From: Mobula hypostoma
Lineage: Eukaryota
Reading direction: 5' to 3'
NCBI RefSeq assembly: GCF_963921235.1
Contig: NC_086107.1
Location: 111,292,001 to 111,356,000, forward strand
Length of the DNA: 64,000 bases
The translations under genes were made by a program, and so were the position numbers. The notes beneath the pieces were generated by a model. That model was not told the DNA's origin. It did not search any database and saw only the letters and a list, made by a program, of their open reading frames with translations. Below are positions 16,221-30,897 of the stretch, in pieces (the first letter of the stretch is position 1; every line of letters starts with the position of its first letter).

Positions 16221-17921
16221 ATAGAAACATAGAAACATAGAAAATAGGTGCAGGAGTAGGCCATTCGGCCCTTCGAGCCTGCACCGCCATTTATTATGAT
16301 CATGGCTGATCATCCAACTCAGAACCCTGCACCAGCCTTCCCTCCATACCCCCTGATCCCCGTAGCCACAAGGGCCATATCTAACTCCCTCTTAAATATA
16401 GCCAATGAACTGGCCTCAACAGTTTGCTGTGGCAGAGAATTCCACAGATTCACCACTCTCTGTGTGAAGAAGTTTTTCCTAATCTCGGTCCTAAAAGGCT
16501 TCCCCTCTATCCTCAAACTGTGACCCCTTGTTCTGGACCTCCCCAACATCAGGAACAATCTTCCCGCATCTAGCCTGTCCAATCCCTTTAGGATTTTATA
16601 CGTTTCAATCAGATCCCCCCTCAATCTTCTAAATTCCAACGAGTACAAGCCCAGTTCATCCAGTCTTTCTTCATATGAAAGACCTGCCATCCCAGGAATC
16701 AATCTGGTGAACCTTCTTTGTACTCCCTCTATGGCAAAGATGTCTTTCCTCAGATTAGGGGACCAAAACTGCACACAATACTCCAGGTGTGGTCTCACCA
16801 AGGCCTTGTACAACTGCAGTAGTACCTCCCTGCTCCTGTACTCGAATCCTCTCGCTATAAATGCCAGCATACCATTCGCCTTTTTCACTGCCTGCTGTAC
16901 CTGTGTGCCCACTTTCAATGACTGGTGTATAATGACACCCAGGTCTCGTTGCACCTCCCCTTTTCCTAATCGGCCACCATTCAGATAATAATCCGTTTTC
17001 CTGTTTTTGCCACCAAAGTGGATAACCTCACATTTATCCACATTAAATTGCATCTGCCATGAATTTGCCCACTCATCTAACCTATCCAAGTCACCCTGCA
17101 TCCTCTTAGCATCCTCCTCACAGCTAACACTGCCGCCCAGCTTCATGTCATCCGCAAACTTGGAGATGCTGCATTTAATTCCCTCGTCTAAGTCATTAAT
17201 ATATATTGTAAACAACTGGGGTCCCAGCACTGAGCCTTGCGTTACCCTACTAGGCACTGCCTGCCATTCTGAAAAGGTCCCGTTTATTCCCACTCTTTGC
17301 TTCCTGTCTGCCAACCAATTCTCTATCCACATCAATACCATACCCCCAATACCGTGTGCTTTAAGTTTGCACGCTAATCTCCTGTGTGGGACCTTGTCAA
17401 AAGCCTTTTGAAAATCCAAATATATCACATCCACTGGTTCTCCCCTATCCACTCTACTAGTTACATCCTCAAAAAATTCTATGAGATTCGTCAGACATGA
17501 TTTTCCTTTCACAAATCCATGCTGACTTTGTCTGATCATTTCACCGCTTTCCAAATGTGCTGTTATCACATCTTTGATAACTGACTCCAACATTTTCCCC
17601 ACCACCGATGTTAGGCTAACCAGTCTATAATTCCCTGGTTTCTCTCTCCCACCTTTTTTAAAAAGTGGGGTTACATTAGCCACCCTCCAATCCTCAGGAA
17701 CTAGTCCAGAATCTAAAGAGTTTTGAAAAATTATCACTAATGCATCCACTATTTCTTGGGCTACTTCCTTAAGCACACTGGGATGCAGACCATCTGGCCC
17801 TGGAGATTTATCTGCCTTTAATCCCTTCAATTTACCTAACACCACTTCCCTACTAACATGTATTTCCCTCAGTTCCTCCATCTCACTAGACCCTCAGTCC
17901 CGTACTATTTCCGGAAGATTA
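16221..17921 (-). mobile_element. Young CR1 LINE, 5'-truncated, open RT ORF 16319-17881
   Basis: KSPGPDG, YLDFQKAFDKV, QGSVLGP, KFADD and RPHLEYC motifs; (TTTCTATG)n tail. Confidence 0.95.
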
Positions 17922-18220
17922 ATTTCCACAAGGTTATGGTCCTTCCATCCTCTCTCCACATTCAGAACAGGCTTCCCCTCTAACCCAGGCACTGGTTATA
18001 CTTTACCATTCTCCTCCAGTCCCTAGTCGGTTCTGGTAAATTTGGGACACGTCAGGACCAGTACATGTTGGCCCAATTAAGCGGCTGCCTCAATTAGCCC
18101 GTTTCAAGGAAATAGTTAAAAAAAAGTATAAAAGACAAACTACCATTTAACAGAGCATCAAATCATGTATTTAAATGAAATACAGAACACATTAGAACAC
18201 TACCAATACTACTGGTAGTA

Positions 18221-18665
18221 TCTGACAACAACAGGAAACCTGTGCAGGAGAGTTTTTAAAGGAAATAGCCACTGCGCTGGGGCAGTTCCATCCTCTTGAC
18301 CTTGGAGGTCCGGGTCCAGTGTGATGATCGGTCATCACAAACTGGGGGTCTTTCATATTTTTACAGTGGGTGACGGTGACGTCTCTCGTGCCTTGTCATG
18401 CCCTTTATTCTCCACAGAGCATCGCAAAACCGCCTTCCTTGCCTTTGGATCTCACTGGAGATCTTATCCCCCCAGTCTGCTGAAGTTGACTTCACATGCT
18501 AGGACACGCATGACCCTATCTCACATGGGGTATAAGACCTGCTGACTACCCTCACCTGGTTTAGCCCACCTGCCAAACCGGTGCACAGGGGCGTGGCTGC
18601 TGTCACATGGCAACAGCTACTTGGAGCCACATGTGAGAGATGAGTGTCTGATGGGGACCAAAGGT
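18221..18665 (-). mobile_element. Non-autonomous RTE derivative with a decayed HDV-like ribozyme 3' half
   Basis: Homologous to 29900-30140; retains GUGGCUCC..GCCACGCCCC..GGCUAAACCAGGUGAG on the minus strand. Confidence 0.65.
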
Positions 18666-18912
18666 AACATTCAGGATGATTGTCAATGCCTTCAAATTTT
18701 TCATAGTTCCTAACTTGGCGAAGTAGTGAAATCGTTTCACTTTCACTCCAGGCTGTTTCTGGCATCTCCAAGCCTGAATACTTGAAACCGCAGTAAACAA
18801 AACAGTTCTAAGTTGTCTTTCTGCTTATTTCTCACCAACTATCGGTGACTGGTTTTTGAACACAAACACATGCAACGGACACTATGTAAAAGCTGATCAC
18901 TCTAGGTAAAGT

Positions 18913-22662: not shown

Positions 22663-22850
22663 GAGCAGCTCAGGTTTGAGAACCTGATGGTTGGAGGAAA
22701 GCAGCTGTTCCTGAACCTGGTGACATGGGGACTTTGGTAACTCCTGTCAGATGGCAGCATCAAGATCATGAATTCTTCTCTGAACACCTTTGCTCTGTCC
22801 ACCGTGGAGGCGGGATCTCTCAGGGACCAGCCATTTTAATATCACCAGCA

Positions 22851-24632
22851 GGTGAATTGATTATGGGGAGCAAGGACATGGCAGACCAATTGAATAATTA
22901 CTTTGGTTCTGTCTTCACTAAGGAGGACATAAATAATCTTCCAGAAATAGTAAGGGACAGAGGGTCCAGTGAGATGGAGGAACTGAGTGAAATACATGTT
23001 AGTAGGGAAGTGGTGTTAGGTAAATTGAAGGGATTGAAGGCAGATAAATCCCCAGGGCCAGATGGTCTGCATCCTAGAGTGCTTAAGGAAGTAGCCCAAG
23101 AAATAGTGGATGCATTAGTGATAATTTTTCAAAACTCGTTAGATTCTGGACTAGTTCCTGAGGATTGGAGGGTGGCTAATGTAACCCCACTTTTTAAAAA
23201 AGGAGGGAGAGAGAAACCGGGGAATTATAGACTGGTTAGCCTAACGTCGGTGGTGGGGAAACTGCTGGAGTCAGTTATCAAGGATGTGATAACAGCACAT
23301 TTGGAAAGCGGTGAAATGATCGGACAAAGTCAGCATGGATTTGTGAAAGGAAAATCATGTCTGACGAATCTCATAGAATTTTTTGAGGATGTAACTAGTA
23401 GAGTGGATAGGGGAGAACCAGTGGATGTGGTATATTTGGATTTTCAAAAGGCTTTTGACAGGGTCCCACACAGGAGATTAGTGTGCAAACTTAAAGCACA
23501 CGGTATTGGGGGTAAGGTATTGGTGTGGGTGGAGAATTGGTTAGCAGACAGGAAGCAAAGAGTGGGAATAAACGGGACCTTTTCAGAATGGCAGGCGGTG
23601 ACTAGTGGGGTACCGCAAGGCTCAGTGCTGGGACCCCAGTTGTTTACAATATATATTAATGACTTGGATGAGGGAATTAAATGCAGCATCTCCAAGTTTG
23701 CGGATGACACGAAGCTGGGTGGCAGTGTTAGCAGTGAGGAGGATGCTAAGAGGATGCAGGGTGACTTGGATAGGTTGGGTGAGTGGGCAAACTCATGGCA
23801 GATGCAATTTAATGTGGATAAATGTGAAGTTATCCACTTTGGTGGCAAAAATAGGAAAACAGATTATTATCTGAATGGTGGCCGATTAGGAAAAGGGGAG
23901 GTGCAACGAGACCTGGGTGTCATTATACACCAGTCATTGAAAGTGGGCATGCAGGTACAGCAGGCAGTGAAAAAAGCGAATGGTATGCTGGCATTTATAG
24001 CGAGAGGATTCGAGTACAGGAGCAGGGAGGTACTACTGCAGTTGTACAAGGCCTTGGTGAGACCACACCTGGAGTATTGTGTGCAGTTTTGGTCCCCTAA
24101 CCTGAGGAAAGACATCTTTGCCATAGAGGGAGTACAAAGAAGGTTCACCAGATTGATTCCTGGGATGGCAGGACTTTCATATGAAGAAAGACTGGATGAA
24201 CTGGGCTTGTACTCGTTGGAATTTAGAAGATTGAGGGAGGATCTGATTGAAACGTATAAGATCCTAAAGGGATTGGACAGGCTAGATGCAGGAAGATTGT
24301 TCCCGATGTTGGGGAAGTCCAGAACGAGGGGTCACAGTTTGAGGATAGAGGGGAAGCCTTTTAGGACCAAGATTAGGAAAAACTTCTTCACACAGAGAGT
24401 GGTGAATCTGTGGAATTCTCTGCCACAGCAAACTGTTGAGGCCAGTTCTTTGGCTATGTTTAAGAGGGAGTTAGATATGGCCCTTGTGGCTATGGGGGTC
24501 AGGGGGTATGGAGGGTAGGCTGGGGCGGGGTTCTGAGTTGGATGATCAGCCATGATCATAATAAATGGTGGTGCAGGCTCGAAGGGCCGAATGGCCTACT
24601 CCTGCACCTATTTTCTATGTTTCTATGTTTCT
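22851..24632 (+). mobile_element. Young CR1 LINE, 5'-truncated, open RT ORF to 24518
   Basis: Full RT motifs (GVPQGSVLGP, KFADD) and (TTTCTATG)n tail. It splits an older repeat at ..TTTAATATCACCAGC|ATATGTCATG.. Confidence 0.95.
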
Positions 24633-28382: not shown

Positions 28383-30163
28383 GTACGTGAGAAACTGTCG
28401 TAGGAAAGCAGTATCCATTATCAGATCTAAGTCTCTGGCACTTCTTGCCCAATGGGAGCAGTGTGAAGGGAGCCTGGAGAGAAGGGTGCCGTCCTCATCA
28501 TTTCCTCCCAGAGTCCTTGGATCCTCGCTATTCAATGTCAAACTCGATCGATTTGGGACGTTATCAGACGGGCTCAGCTGTTTCCTATCAGCACTCACAA
28601 GACTTGTCAGAATAGCCAAGGGAAGAATGGTGTCAAAGTCTTCATTGTTAATGGCTCGTCGGGGAAGGATCCCAACTTTGCTCAGAGATAAGTTGCTATT
28701 CTGGAATTTCGTTCTGACCATTACTCCCGCGGCTCCTCTGTGGAAGGGGTATCTGCTTCGCACAGAGATTCTGAAGATTTTCTGTTCATTTATCTATCTG
28801 GCACAAAGCCTGTGTTCCTATGTATTCCACTGAAAGATGTTGAGGTGATAAATGTGTTCACAGTTTGCTGTATCATGCTGTGTCCCAGCCTCACACACCA
28901 CAGCTTTCTTTGTTACTGCCCTGAACAACAGCCTCTCATCTGTGGTTCTTTCCACAGGACAATAGCCTCCTTCTTCTCTGGATCTCAGTAATGCTAAGGC
29001 TTTATAAAGCGTTGGTCAGACCATACTTGGAGTATTGTCAGCAGTTCTGGGTCCCATATCTAAGGAAGGACGTGCTGGTGTTGGAGAGGGTCCACAGGAG
29101 AACGAGAATGATCCTGGGAATAAAAGGGTTAACTTACAACCTGACGAGCTTTCAATGACTCTGGGCCTGTACTCTCTGGAGCTTAGGAGAATATTGAAAG
29201 GCCGAGATAGAGTGGATGTGGAGAGGGTGGTTCCAGTAGTGGGAGGGTCATCCTCAGCATGCAAGGATGTCCCTTTAGAGCAGAGATGTCGAGGATATTT
29301 TTTTTAGCCAGAGGGTGGTGAATCTGTGGAATTCATTGCCACAAGTGGAGACCAAGATTAAAGAAGGCATTTTTGTTCATCCAAAAGTCAACAGGTCATC
29401 AATGACAGATAATCTGAAAAACTTCCAGTGGGACCGGAGAAAATCACCTGGAGGGCATGCATAAAATTTGTTGTTGAAAATTTTTTTGGCATCTACAGAG
29501 CACCAAACTATAAGGTCCGTCCATCGTCATCGATGAAGACCTCGACGCCATTAGTACTTTTTACGAGGTCGAGTTGCTAGCTCGACACTCAACACAGCAC
29601 AGATGGAAAGCGTGGCTGGGAGCGACCGGACTGGATTCCAATTTGGGAATCTTCGCTCCCGGAGTCCGGCGCTGATGTCACTGCACCACCAGCTGGCTTT
29701 TGGTGTCGAGACTAGCGCGTGATTTGGATTTAAGTGAGGGAGAGATGCGCCGCATCAGCCTCACTCTCTCTTCCCAATTTCCATCTGGATCCAGTGGCAA
29801 GACAGAGTCGAGACGGCTGGAGGTGGGACTAGGTGCAGTGGATGACCAGGACATCTTCTGTGTCTTGTCCTGTTCTACGCGTTCCACGACGCTTGCAGAG
29901 ACCGCCTTCTTGACCACTGGACCTTTCATTGGTCTCGTTCGCTCAATCCGCCGGAGTCTGTTTTCACATGCTGGGATAAACATCTCCCTATCTCACCGAG
30001 GGTTTGAGACCCGTCGGCTACCCTCACCTGGTTTAGCCGGCTTGTCGAAGCCGTTGCCCAGGGTACGGCCGCTGTCGCATGCAAACAGCTACGGGGAGCC
30101 ACAGGTGAGAGCTGAGTGCCAGGTGGGGACCAAAGGTGGACTAACCGCCCTGAAAAGGAAGCG

Positions 30164-30350
30164 GATCTCCCCCTCCCCCTTTCAAATCTCTTACTAGCTC
30201 TTCTTTCAGCTAGTCCTGACGAAGGGTCTCGGCCTGAAACGTCGACTGTACCTCTTCCTAGAGATGCTGCCTGGCCTGCTGCATTCACCAGCAACTTTTA
30301 TGGTGTGTTGCTTGAAATTCCAGCATCTGCAGATTTCCTTGTGTTTGCAT
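30164..30350 (+). mobile_element. Young Penelope pseudo-LTR fragment
   Basis: TSD TGAAAAGGA(A/T)GCG at 30151-30163 and 30351-30363; same subfamily as 46809-47522. Confidence 0.85.
30211..30248 (+). ncRNA. Minimal type I hammerhead ribozyme motif
   Basis: UAGUC-CUGACGA-A-GGGUCUCGGCCU-GAAA-CG-UC-GACUG. Confidence 0.7.
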
Positions 30351-30407
30351 TGAAAAGGATGCGACATGTTCCCCCACCAGAGGTGCTACCCCTCCCTGAC
30401 GCCCCAT

Positions 30408-30897
30408 GCATCAAACTACATACAGCTGGTTGACGACATGTTTCAAGCACACAAAACCATGAAGTGCAACATGTCCCTAAAGATCTATTTTCTGCATTCC
30501 CATTTAGACTTCTTCCCTGCAAATCTTGATGCTGTCAGTGACGAGCATGGTGAAAGGTTTCACCAGGACATTGTGTCATGGAGAAACTGTATCAGGGCAA
30601 CTGGAATCTGTCAATGCTAGCTGATTATTGTTGGACACTTAGACGAGAAGCCTCAGACACTGAGTACAAATGAAAATCACCAACAAAACATTTTTAGCTT
30701 AGTTGCATTATTGCAAATCTTCAGCACCATTATGCAATAAAACATATTATATTCGATAAAAGTTAATTTCTTGTTTTTCCAAATTCCGGTGTGATACAAG
30801 TAGTCTGAAGTTATATTTGTGCTCAGTTTCAAATGGTCTATCATAAACAAAAAAATTCTGAGGAAGCAACACTTACGAAAAAATTTGTTGTTCAGTG
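30408..30897 (+). mobile_element. Chapaev3-type (CMC) DNA transposon 3' end, transposase C-terminal remnant
   Basis: CNMSLKIYFLHSHLDFFPANLDAVSDEHGERFHQDI, then after a frameshift YQGNWNLSMLADYCWTL; terminus ..AAATTTGTTGTTCAGTG followed by TTA. Confidence 0.75.

What the first reader, a model, noticed from the sequence alone, without database searches (positions are those of the whole stretch)
30022..30405. HDV-like self-cleaving ribozyme with an extra hairpin inserted in L3, at the 5' end of an RTE derivative
Seen on the minus strand: P2 UCUCACCUG (30110-30102) pairs with CAGGUGAGG (30030-30022); P3 is GGC (30100-98)/GCC (30069-67); L3 is UCCCCGU (HDV genomic UCCUCGC); P1' GUACCCU is followed by GG-GCAAC, matching HDV's CUGGGCAAC; P4 is CGGCUU-CGAC-AAGCCG; J4/2 is GG-C-UAA, with the catalytic C75 equivalent at 30036. 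The candidate P1 5' strand GGGGCGU (30405-30399) lies at the element's apparent 5' end. Established: RTE and other non-LTR elements use HDV-like ribozymes to process their 5' ends. Unusual: about 21 nt forming a hairpin (GCUGU..ACAGC, 30089-30071) occupy the position of the extruded U27 in L3. The related copy at 18550-18665 keeps that stem with a different loop, and its P1' ACGCCCC is the perfect partner of GGGGCGU. Inference: this is a family-level structural variant. This copy has a C-A mismatch in P1 and may be inactive.
Basis: partly seen in the sequence, partly recalled or inferred. Interest (0 to 1): 0.8.

Follow-up and report, generated by a model that had tools for sequence, protein, structure and literature searches.

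The report
HDV-like ribozyme heading a SINE-like repeat
The finding is a broken copy of an abundant short retrotransposon whose first ~193 bases look like a hepatitis-delta-type self-cutting RNA, with an unusual extra hairpin in its catalytic loop, that would trim the element's own 5' end.

Summary
The copy itself is dead. It lacks the family's first 5 nt, carries two nested insertions of other repeats, and has three changes in P1'.

The case rests on the family, which has more than 1,000 copies in two lineages about 75% alike. Full-length copies begin at the G of GGGGUGU. That 7-mer is the exact Watson-Crick partner of ACACCCC, which lies directly after P3'. Between the lineage consensuses, P1, P2, P3'/P1'/P1.1 and J4/2 are identical, against 75% identity downstream (Fisher p=2e-4). 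P4 and a rod-like J1/2 helix carry compensatory changes.

- The 290-nt gap is mostly a secondary insertion.
- The "perfect partner" at 18.6 kb is a coincidence between two dead copies.
- No RTE or other LINE partner was found.

Weak points:
- Core helices show no covariation.
- Rfam gives only a sub-threshold match to an HDV-like family.
- The cleavage-site pair is G-C, not G·U.
- The 20-nt L3 hairpin has no precedent that I found.

Verdict: a probable new structural variant of a known kind, not yet tested for cleavage.

The parts
29514..30409 (-). The whole degenerate young-family copy: about 565 nt of its own sequence plus two nested insertions. It is 5'-truncated by 5 nt.
   Evidence: with alignment to 29 other copies.
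30410..30420 (-). 5' copy of the target-site duplication (tgtagtttgat).
   Evidence: It matches 29512-29502 at 9 of 11 positions.
29502..29512 (-). 3' copy of the target-site duplication (tatagtttggt).
30399..30405 (-). It is the family's second G-run (positions 10-16, consensus GGGGUGU) and forms the base of the J1/2 rod.
30351..30398 (-). 5' half of the J1/2 rod (a P1.2-like peripheral helix).
   Evidence: Folds. Compensatory changes.
30164..30350 (-). Insertion A: an unrelated ~187-bp repeat, flanked by a 13-bp duplication (CGCNTCCTTTTCA).
   Evidence: Absent from the 29 other copies.
30111..30163 (-). 3' half of the J1/2 rod plus the AGC linker.
30102..30110 (-). P2 5' strand, UCUCACCUG.
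   Evidence: 97.6% of cells paired.
30098..30100 (-). P3 5' strand, GGC.
30091..30097 (-). L3, UCCCCGU. It holds the U and G of the reverse wobble and the CC of P1.1.
   Evidence: Role of the L3 G and U from PMC3774820 (passages).
30071..30090 (-). The 20-nt hairpin inserted in L3: stem GCUGU/ACAGC, loop UUGCAUGCG.
   Evidence: 97.9% of cells paired. 19 of 21 positions are identical between lineages.
30067..30069 (-). P3 3' strand, GCC.
30060..30066 (-). P1 3' strand. Here it reads GUACCCU; the family consensus is ACACCCC.
30058..30059 (-). The GG of P1.1.
30038..30053 (-). P4 hairpin, CGGCUU-CGAC-AAGCCG.
   Evidence: One search shows G-C changing to C-G between lineages.
30031..30037 (-). J4/2, GCUAAAC. 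The putative catalytic C is at 30036.
   Evidence: 7 of 7 positions are identical between lineages.
30022..30030 (-). P2 3' strand, CAGGUGAGG.
29554..29700 (-). Insertion B: an unrelated ~147-bp sequence that splits the element's 3' hairpin.
   Evidence: compared with the intact 3' ends.
18239..18665 (-). Old-family fragment, truncated at family position 78 and so lacking P1 and the 5' part of J1/2. It sits inside a TIR DNA-transposon composite. Ends are approximate.

Best explanation
The window holds a dead copy of a SINE-like, non-autonomous non-LTR retrotransposon. The young lineage is ~570 bp and the old lineage ~500 bp. In the source copies, the first ~193 nt fold as an HDV-like self-cleaving ribozyme.

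Layout in family numbering:
- P1: 1-7, GGGGUGU, paired with 149-155, ACACCCC.
- J1/2: a ~90-nt rod-like helix at 11-101, 3 nt from both P1 and P2.
- P2: 105-113 with 185-193.
- P3: 115-117 with 146-148.
- L3: 118-124, U-C-C-N-N-G-U, followed by a 20-nt hairpin at 125-144.
- P1.1: C119 and C120 with G157 and G156.
- P4: 162-177.
- J4/2: GCUAAAC, with C179 as the general acid.

Inferred mechanism. The element has no recognisable polymerase III head, and the young lineage has a T4 run at position 59. It is therefore probably transcribed as part of longer host transcripts. The ribozyme then cuts 5' of G1, giving an RNA with an exact 5' end. A LINE reverse transcriptase, still unidentified, copies this RNA from the 3' hairpin and (CAA)n tail by target-primed reverse transcription. 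Because the ribozyme lies downstream of its own cut, each new copy inherits it.

Shown: the sequence layout, the exact 5' ends, the target-site duplications, and the conservation and compensation pattern between lineages.
Inferred: cleavage itself, co-transcription, and the role of the L3 hairpin.
For: 1. 5' ends. Among the 29 other young copies, 7 have a TSD of at least 8 nt abutting G1 (offset 0 or +1). Another 4 have an intact G1 preceded by 5-9 extra nt. Five are truncated by 2-11 nt, and 13 are unclear or more truncated. No sequence upstream of G1 is shared among copies.
2. P1. The terminal 7-mer is the exact Watson-Crick complement of the 7-mer directly after P3'. Both positions are fixed independently, so chance is about 4^-7, doubled because the G-run occurs twice (my inference).
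3. Conservation between the young and old consensus: P1 7/7, P2 18/18, P3'/P1'/P1.1 12/12, J4/2 7/7, P3+L3 9/11, L3 hairpin 19/21, downstream 142/189. Core 53/55 against downstream 142/189 gives Fisher p=2.1e-4.
4. Compensation at lineage level. P4 pair at columns 196/209 is G-C in 26 sequences and C-G/U-G/U-A in 18. Rod pairs: 70/105 G-C to A-U, 75/100 A-U to G-C, 83/98 C-G to U-A. Overall 91.7% of cells are paired, against 34-50% with slid partners.
5. The J1/2 rod is well defined: -44.4 kcal/mol, z=-2.76, 4 of 200 shuffles as good. It sits where PMC4908430 (abstract and passages) places the activating 'pinch' helix of large HDV-like ribozymes.
6. Strict descriptor: 27 family hits and 0 others in 647 kb, and 4 hits in 5.12 Mb of shuffles.
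7. On the 106-nt core of an intact young copy, the only Rfam family of 4227 with E up to 10 is RF02682, an HDV-like ribozyme. It aligns GGGCAACGG-P4-CCGGCUAA.
8. [quoted passage not shown] J1/2 loops of 216-498 nt are known in R2 (PMC3774820).
Against: - No Rfam hit at gathering score in the window. No HDV-clan hit at E up to 10 on 801 nt around the finding or on the whole intact locus L008.
- The one HDV match is 13.2 bits, E=1.7, against a gathering score of 44. An old-lineage copy gave none.
- P1, P2, P3, P1.1 and the L3 hairpin do not vary between the two lineages, so they carry no covariation.
- A test of P1 pair 6-150 found no coupling. Of 20 fetched copies with U150, about 13 have G6, 4-5 have A6 and 3 are uninformative. 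The A6 share is similar among C150 copies.
- The cleavage-site pair is G1-C155, not the G·U wobble of HDV and CPEB3 (PMC4836649 passage). Its TG and CA decay variants are equally common, 102 against 109 exact 31-mers. This is plain CpG decay, so there was no U155 source copy.
- L3 is interrupted by a 20-nt hairpin. My searches found no precedent.
- The nested MFE of the 193 nt is no better than shuffles: z=-0.22, 78 of 200.
- The 5' 26 nt also match a G-quadruplex motif. That could by itself conserve the G-runs.
- No cleavage data exist.
Confidence: 0.7

Rival explanations
1. The HDV-like layout is a chance resemblance. The 5' ~190 nt would be a structured, G-rich leader (a rod hairpin, possibly a G-quadruplex) that serves as an internal promoter or protein-binding region. 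The exact 5' end would be a transcription start.
For: - The loose topological descriptor is common: 40 hits in 128 kb.
- The nested MFE has z=-0.22.
- Rfam gives no match above threshold.
- Core helices are invariant, so there is no covariation.
- The cleavage-site pair is G1-C, not G·U.
- The L3 hairpin has no precedent I could find.
- There is a G4 motif at positions 1-26.
- Other blocks downstream of the ribozyme are also conserved.
Against: - It requires many features to coincide: a terminal 7-mer complementary to the 7-mer directly after P3', a 9-11-bp P2, a 3-bp P3, CC/GG for P1.1, the U and G of L3, C-N-A-A before P2', and a compensated P4.
- All of these are identical across lineages that are 75% alike elsewhere.
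- No tRNA-like head was found: ARAGORN gave 0 genes in 5 loci, and Rfam gave no polymerase III RNA.
- The young lineage has a T4 run at position 59. From established knowledge, this argues against polymerase III.
Confidence: 0.2
2. The fold is a relic. It would be inherited from the 5' UTR of an ancestral ribozyme-bearing LINE and no longer cleave, disabled by the L3 hairpin and the G-C cleavage-site pair. It would be kept for another role such as translation initiation, RNA stability or reverse-transcriptase binding.
For: - The L3 insertion and the G1-C pair both depart from active HDV-like ribozymes (PMC4836649).
- Reviews report IRES-like roles for HDV-like ribozymes (PMC6765202 passages).
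- A 94-codon frame follows in the young lineage.
Against: - Catalytic positions are invariant across both lineages: C179, L3 U118 and G123, and P1.1.
- Copies still start exactly at G1.
- The frame has no Pfam domain, and the old lineage has stops in the same region (by eye).
Confidence: 0.1

Closest known systems
[quoted passage not shown]
   Same: The double-pseudoknot order of helices, the cut at the first base of the element, and the presumed release from co-transcripts (PMC3774820 and PMC6765202 passages).
   Different: - This element has no ORF for a reverse transcriptase and no identified partner.
- L3 carries a 20-nt hairpin.
- The cleavage-site pair is G-C.
- The host is a 3.5-Gb eukaryotic genome with thousands of copies.
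Non-autonomous elements that carry the partner's ribozyme (NARTc of Trypanosoma cruzi; R2-derived SIDEs)
   Same: A short non-coding retroelement headed by an HDV-like ribozyme (PMC3383444 and PMC3414825, search listings and abstracts only).
   Different: Those share their 5' end with a known autonomous element. Here no autonomous element with this head or tail was found.
drz-Agam-2 type 'large' HDV-like ribozymes with a P1.2 helix in J1/2
   Same: A stable helix in J1/2 starts and ends within 3 nt of P1 and P2, the arrangement shown to activate catalysis (PMC4908430, abstract and passages).
   Different: The rod here is ~90 nt with internal loops. Its base is a repeat of the P1 sequence itself.
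Rfam RF02682, HDV ribozyme of Faecalibacterium prausnitzii
   Same: The stretch GGCAACGG-P4-CCGGCUAA aligns letter for letter.
   Different: The score is 13.2 bits against a gathering score of 44. The 5' half, with the long J1/2 and the L3 hairpin, does not align.

Membership tests
HDV-like self-cleaving ribozyme | Order of strands: P1, J1/2, P2, P3, L3, P3', P1', P1.1, P4, J4/2, P2' (nested double pseudoknot). | tested here: met
   Structure laid on alignment A1: 91.7% of cells paired, against 34-50% when partners are slid. The descriptor finds it in 24 of 29 young loci.
HDV-like self-cleaving ribozyme | P1 of 6-7 bp whose first base, G1, is the first base of the cleaved RNA. | tested here: met
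   In the family consensus GGGGUGU pairs with ACACCCC over 7 Watson-Crick bp, and copies begin at G1. The window copy does not meet this, because it is truncated.
HDV-like self-cleaving ribozyme | G·U wobble at the cleavage site (G1·U37 in HDV, G1·U36 in CPEB3). | tested here: not met
   The consensus pair is G1-C155. TG and CA variants number 102 and 109, which is CpG decay and not a U155 source copy. I could not check whether the wobble is obligatory in all members.
HDV-like self-cleaving ribozyme | 3-bp P3 closing a 7-8-nt L3 that holds the U and G of the reverse wobble and the two bases of P1.1. | tested here: inconclusive
   P3, U118, G123 and the C119/C120-G157/G156 pairs are all present and invariant. 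However, 28 nt lie between the P3 strands, because a 20-nt hairpin plus one G follows L3 position 7.
HDV-like self-cleaving ribozyme | Catalytic C in J4/2 a few bases before P2', followed by A residues. | tested here: met
   GCUAAAC is 7/7 identical between lineages. Only the sequence is shown; the chemistry is not tested.
HDV-like self-cleaving ribozyme | Score at or above the gathering threshold of an Rfam HDV-type model. | tested here: not met
   Searches gave none. One search gave 13.2 bits against a gathering score of 44.
HDV-like self-cleaving ribozyme | Covariation in the core helices. | tested here: inconclusive
   P1, P2, P3 and P1.1 are invariant between the two lineages. Compensation is seen only in P4 and the J1/2 rod. 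The pair 6-150 test showed no coupling.
HDV-like self-cleaving ribozyme | Mg2+-dependent self-cleavage giving a 2',3'-cyclic phosphate and a 5'-OH. | not testable with these tools
   No RNA run is on record for the stretch.
Non-LTR (LINE-mobilised) non-autonomous retrotransposon | Target-site duplications, variable 5' truncation, and a 3' tail of a simple repeat. | tested here: met
   TSDs of 8-13 bp. The tail is (CAA)n after a 3' hairpin. 3 of 20 further copies are truncated inside the body.
RTE-clade derivative | A 5' or 3' end shared with an RTE-type LINE in the same genome. | tested here: inconclusive
   No LINE was found. All 20 of 20 upstream checks were the same element. One pattern gave 0 matches and the other 11, with no common non-SINE junction.

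The most novel reading that the evidence does not exclude
This would be an active HDV-type ribozyme class whose catalytic loop L3 carries an extra helix, making a three-way junction at the active site, and which uses a G-C cleavage-site pair. It would have been missed by all fixed-L3 descriptors and Rfam models. The conserved hairpin, with its palindromic GCAUGC loop, and the competing 5' G-quadruplex motif could act as a switch or as a dimerisation or protein-docking site. That would tie cleavage to retrotransposition.
Probability: 0.4. Interest if true: 0.75.

Novelty: new variant of a known kind. Interest (0 to 1): 0.62.

Why it matters
If the consensus RNA cleaves, L3 of the HDV fold tolerates a whole inserted helix. 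L3 is the loop that builds the metal site and P1.1. Searches that fix L3 at 7-8 nt would then have been undercounting this ribozyme class in large eukaryotic genomes.

It would also add an abundant vertebrate-scale repeat family to the retroelements that define their own 5' end by self-cleavage. The family has at least 1,255 candidate copies with the ribozyme region and 2,777 with the 3' module.

The two lineages give a natural mutant series for testing the fold: L3 CC against AA, GCAAC against UACAC, and a flipped P4 pair.

Tried and rejected
- Rfam. Gathering score on the window gave 0 hits. E up to 10 on 29800-30600 gave 4 noise hits. The whole of L008 gave 3 noise hits. The old-lineage core gave 2 noise hits.
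- ARAGORN on 5 loci found no tRNA-like head.
- The loose HDV descriptor proved uninformative, with 40 hits in the window.
- Reading the 18.6-kb copy as a covarying relative was rejected. It is a truncated fragment inside a TIR-transposon composite, and 7 of 30 loci share the same junction.
- A possible U155 (G·U) source variant, suggested by 10 T in 26 copies of my sample, was rejected. Genome-wide counts are symmetric at 102 and 109. The sample was biased towards the window copy.
- Coupling of P1 positions 6 and 150 was not seen.
- The LINE partner was not found.
- RNA evidence. No RNA holder was listed. Contigs of four runs from four coded organisms cover both lineages but show no starts or ends. 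This gives no verdict on expression.
- The 94-aa frame has no Pfam family.
- Literature. The element's 16-mer appears in no paper. No paper describing an L3 insertion in an HDV-like ribozyme turned up. Webb 2009 and Ruminski 2011 are recalled only; I did not see them. PMC2645270 is not held.
- Earlier findings of this scan held nothing relevant.
Full report
**What is at the coordinates**

- P2: 30110-30102 with 30030-30022.
- P3: 30100-30098 with 30069-30067.
- L3: UCCCCGU at 30097-30091.
- A 20-nt hairpin at 30090-30071.
- P1': GUACCCU at 30066-30060.
- GG then GCAA.
- P4: 30053-30038.
- J4/2: GCUAAAC, with the C at 30036.
- GGGGCGU at 30405-30399.

Rfam finds nothing at gathering score in the 64-kb window. 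It finds no HDV-type family at E up to 10 in 29800-30600.

**The finding is one copy of a large repeat family**

- A search of the window's own 3.48-Gb assembly with 30000-30160(-) gave 1,255 first-look candidates. The 40 scored are 98-100% identical.
- Comparing the window copy with 29 others shows an element of ~570 bp. It ends in a hairpin (CTCGACACCAT...ATGGTGTCGAG) and ...GACGAACAA(CAA)n, flanked by target-site duplications.
- The window copy has its own duplication: tgtagtttgat at 30420-30410 and tatagtttggt at 29512-29502. It begins at 30409, which is family position 6.
- It carries a 187-bp foreign insertion at 30350-30164 with a 13-bp duplication. A second insertion at ~29700-29554 splits the 3' hairpin.
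- Its P1' differs from the family's ACACCCC at three positions. This copy cannot be active.

**A second, older lineage and a decoy**

- A search with the 18.6-kb copy gave 3,001 candidates at 80-84% identity.
- Of its 30 loci, 21 are full SINE-like copies of an older lineage. This lineage is ~500 bp, ~75% identical to the young one over positions 1-381, and has a different 3' part.
- Two further loci are truncated or deleted.
- Seven, including the window's 18.6-kb copy, share one junction, GAATGTTAC|CTTTGGTCCCC. They match a ~850-bp terminal-inverted-repeat element on both sides of the SINE fragment.
- So a fragment truncated at position 78 was captured in a DNA transposon and amplified with it.
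- That copy has no P1 strand. Its ACGCCCC is a private A-to-G change, and the window's GGGGCGU is a private U-to-C change. Their complementarity is a coincidence between two dead copies.

**The family-level fold**

Both lineages begin GGGGTGTATGGGGTGT(C)CAGGG. In family numbering the layout is:
- P1: 1-7, GGGGUGU, pairing over 7 Watson-Crick bp with 149-155, ACACCCC, which directly follows P3'.
This closes a ~90-nt rod that occupies J1/2.
- P2: 105-113 with 185-193, extendable to 11 bp.
- P3: 115-117 with 146-148.
- L3: 118-124.
- Inserted hairpin: 125-144.
- P1.1: C119 and C120 with G157 and G156.
- P4: 162-177.
- J4/2: 178-184, with C179.

The rod starts 3 nt after P1 and ends 3 nt before P2. 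It folds at -44.4 kcal/mol, z=-2.76, and 4 of 200 shuffles fold as well. A helix at this place is the 'pinch' that activates large HDV-like ribozymes (PMC4908430, abstract and passages). J1/2 loops of 216-498 nt are known in R2 (PMC3774820, passages). The long J1/2 is therefore not unusual.

**5' ends**

Among the 29 other young loci:

| Class | Copies |
|---|---|
| TSD of at least 8 nt abutting G1 (offset 0 or +1) | 7 |
| G1 intact, with 5-9 extra nt between TSD and G1 | 4 |
| Truncated by 2-11 nt | 5 |
| Unclear, short TSD or larger truncation | 13 |

Twenty further 5' ends show the same pattern. No sequence upstream of G1 is shared. The template RNA therefore starts at G1. That the terminal 7-mer is the exact complement of the 7-mer fixed by the motif after P3' is, by my estimate, a chance of about 1 in 10^4.

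**Conservation and compensation**

Identity between the two lineage consensuses:

| Segment | Identical positions |
|---|---|
| P1 | 7/7 |
| P2, both strands | 18/18 |
| P3'/P1'/P1.1 | 12/12 |
| J4/2 | 7/7 |
| P3+L3 | 9/11 |
| L3 hairpin (both differences at CpG) | 19/21 |
| J1.1/4+P4 | 13/20 |
| J1/2 | 79/98 |
| Downstream of the ribozyme | 142/189 |

- Core against downstream (53/55 against 142/189) gives Fisher p=2.1e-4.
- On alignment A1 (26 young and 21 old copies; L001, L011, L015 and L028 were left out), 91.7% of cells pair, against 34-50% when partners are slid.
- One P4 pair flips from G-C to C-G.
- Three rod pairs change on both sides.
- Individual copies are dead on arrival, so only these lineage-level events count. 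They concern the peripheral helices. The core helices never vary and so give no covariation.

**Specificity**

- A topology-only descriptor gave 40 hits in the window's two strands and is useless.
- Adding L3 U-Y-C-N-N-G and C-N-A-A before P2' gave 27 family hits (24 of 29 young loci, 3 of 30 old-query loci). It gave no other hit in 647,220 bases.
- The same descriptor gave 4 hits in 5.12 Mb of shuffles, all with 6-7-bp P2.
- On the 106-nt core of an intact young copy, the only Rfam match at E up to 10 is RF02682, an HDV-like ribozyme. It scores 13.2 bits, E=1.7, against a gathering score of 44, and aligns GGGCAACGG-P4-CCGGCUAA.
- The old lineage, which reads GGUACAC there, gives none.

**Against the ribozyme reading**

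- The cleavage-site pair is G-C. The T at this position in 10 of 26 copies of my sample suggested a G·U source variant. Genome-wide, however, the TG and CA forms occur 102 and 109 times. That is symmetric CpG decay, and my sample was biased towards the window copy.
- HDV and CPEB3 both have a G·U wobble there, which serves as a metal site (PMC4836649 passage).
- A shared variant A6, in about a quarter of copies, is not coupled to U150.
- The nested MFE of the whole 193 nt is ordinary, z=-0.22.
- The first 26 nt also fit a G-quadruplex motif.
- The L3 hairpin sits where every described member has a closed 7-8-nt loop. I found no precedent for it. This covers only the open-access library and the passages I read.

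**Mode of transcription and partner**

- No tRNA-like head was found and no polymerase III RNA family matched.
- The young lineage has a T4 run at position 59.
- Together these favour read-through transcription followed by self-cleavage, as reviewed for RTE and Baggins (PMC6765202 passages). This is an inference.
All 20 of 20 sites upstream of the young 3' module are the same element, 3 of them truncated. Two junction patterns found no LINE.

**RNA data**

No run on record as RNA holds the stretch. Contigs from four coded organisms carry both lineages with the same P1'. Contigs cannot show ends.

**Verdict**

- It is wrong or unproven in several particulars: which G-run is P1, the 290-nt gap, the 18.6-kb 'covariation', and the RTE label.
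- I put the probability that the source copies encode a working HDV-like ribozyme at about 0.7.
- The window copy itself is certainly defunct.

Noticed in passing
window 30164-30350 (-): A ~187-bp unrelated repeat (…ggaaatctgcagatgctggaatttcaag…gtacagtcgacgtttcaggccgagaccc…) is inserted in the J1/2 region with a 13-bp target duplication. A similar sequence appears in the flank of L072, so it is itself a dispersed repeat.
   Followed up: partly
window ~29554-29700 (-): A second foreign insertion of ~147 bp splits the element's 3' hairpin. Its identity was not examined.
   Followed up: no
window ~18024-18849 (-); loci L031, L033, L034, L040, L044, L045, L052: An ~850-bp element with terminal inverted repeats (ACAGTGGATTCCGGTTAATTGGG…) has at least 6,150 candidate copies. 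One variant captured a 5'-truncated SINE fragment, and that composite was itself amplified: 7 loci share the identical junction.
   Followed up: partly
family positions 1-26 (L008:1690-1715:-); partly in window 30381-30409: The 5' end fits a canonical G-quadruplex motif, GGGG-N5-GGGG-N5-GGG-N1-GGGG, in both lineages. It would compete with P1 and with the base of the J1/2 rod.
   Followed up: partly
window 30076-30084 (-), loop of the L3 hairpin: The loop UUGCAUGCG contains the self-complementary 6-mer GCAUGC. This could allow loop-loop dimerisation. By itself it has about a 6% chance of occurring.
   Followed up: no
L008:1148-1430:- (family positions ~286-568); window ~29514-29925 (-), interrupted: In the young lineage a 94-codon frame runs from an ATG to the (CAA)n tail without a stop. 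It has no Pfam family. The old lineage has stops in the same region.
   Followed up: partly
window 16319-17893 (-) and 22680-24518 (+): Two long, nearly identical reverse-transcriptase frames (524 and 612 aa from stop to stop) lie in inverted orientation on either side of the 18.6-kb composite. They are a different LINE family, unrelated in sequence to the element studied.
   Followed up: no
L010 and L011 (G000:C52, about 14 kb apart): Two copies have identical flanks on both sides. This is a local segmental duplication, not two insertions, so I counted them once in the alignment.
   Followed up: partly
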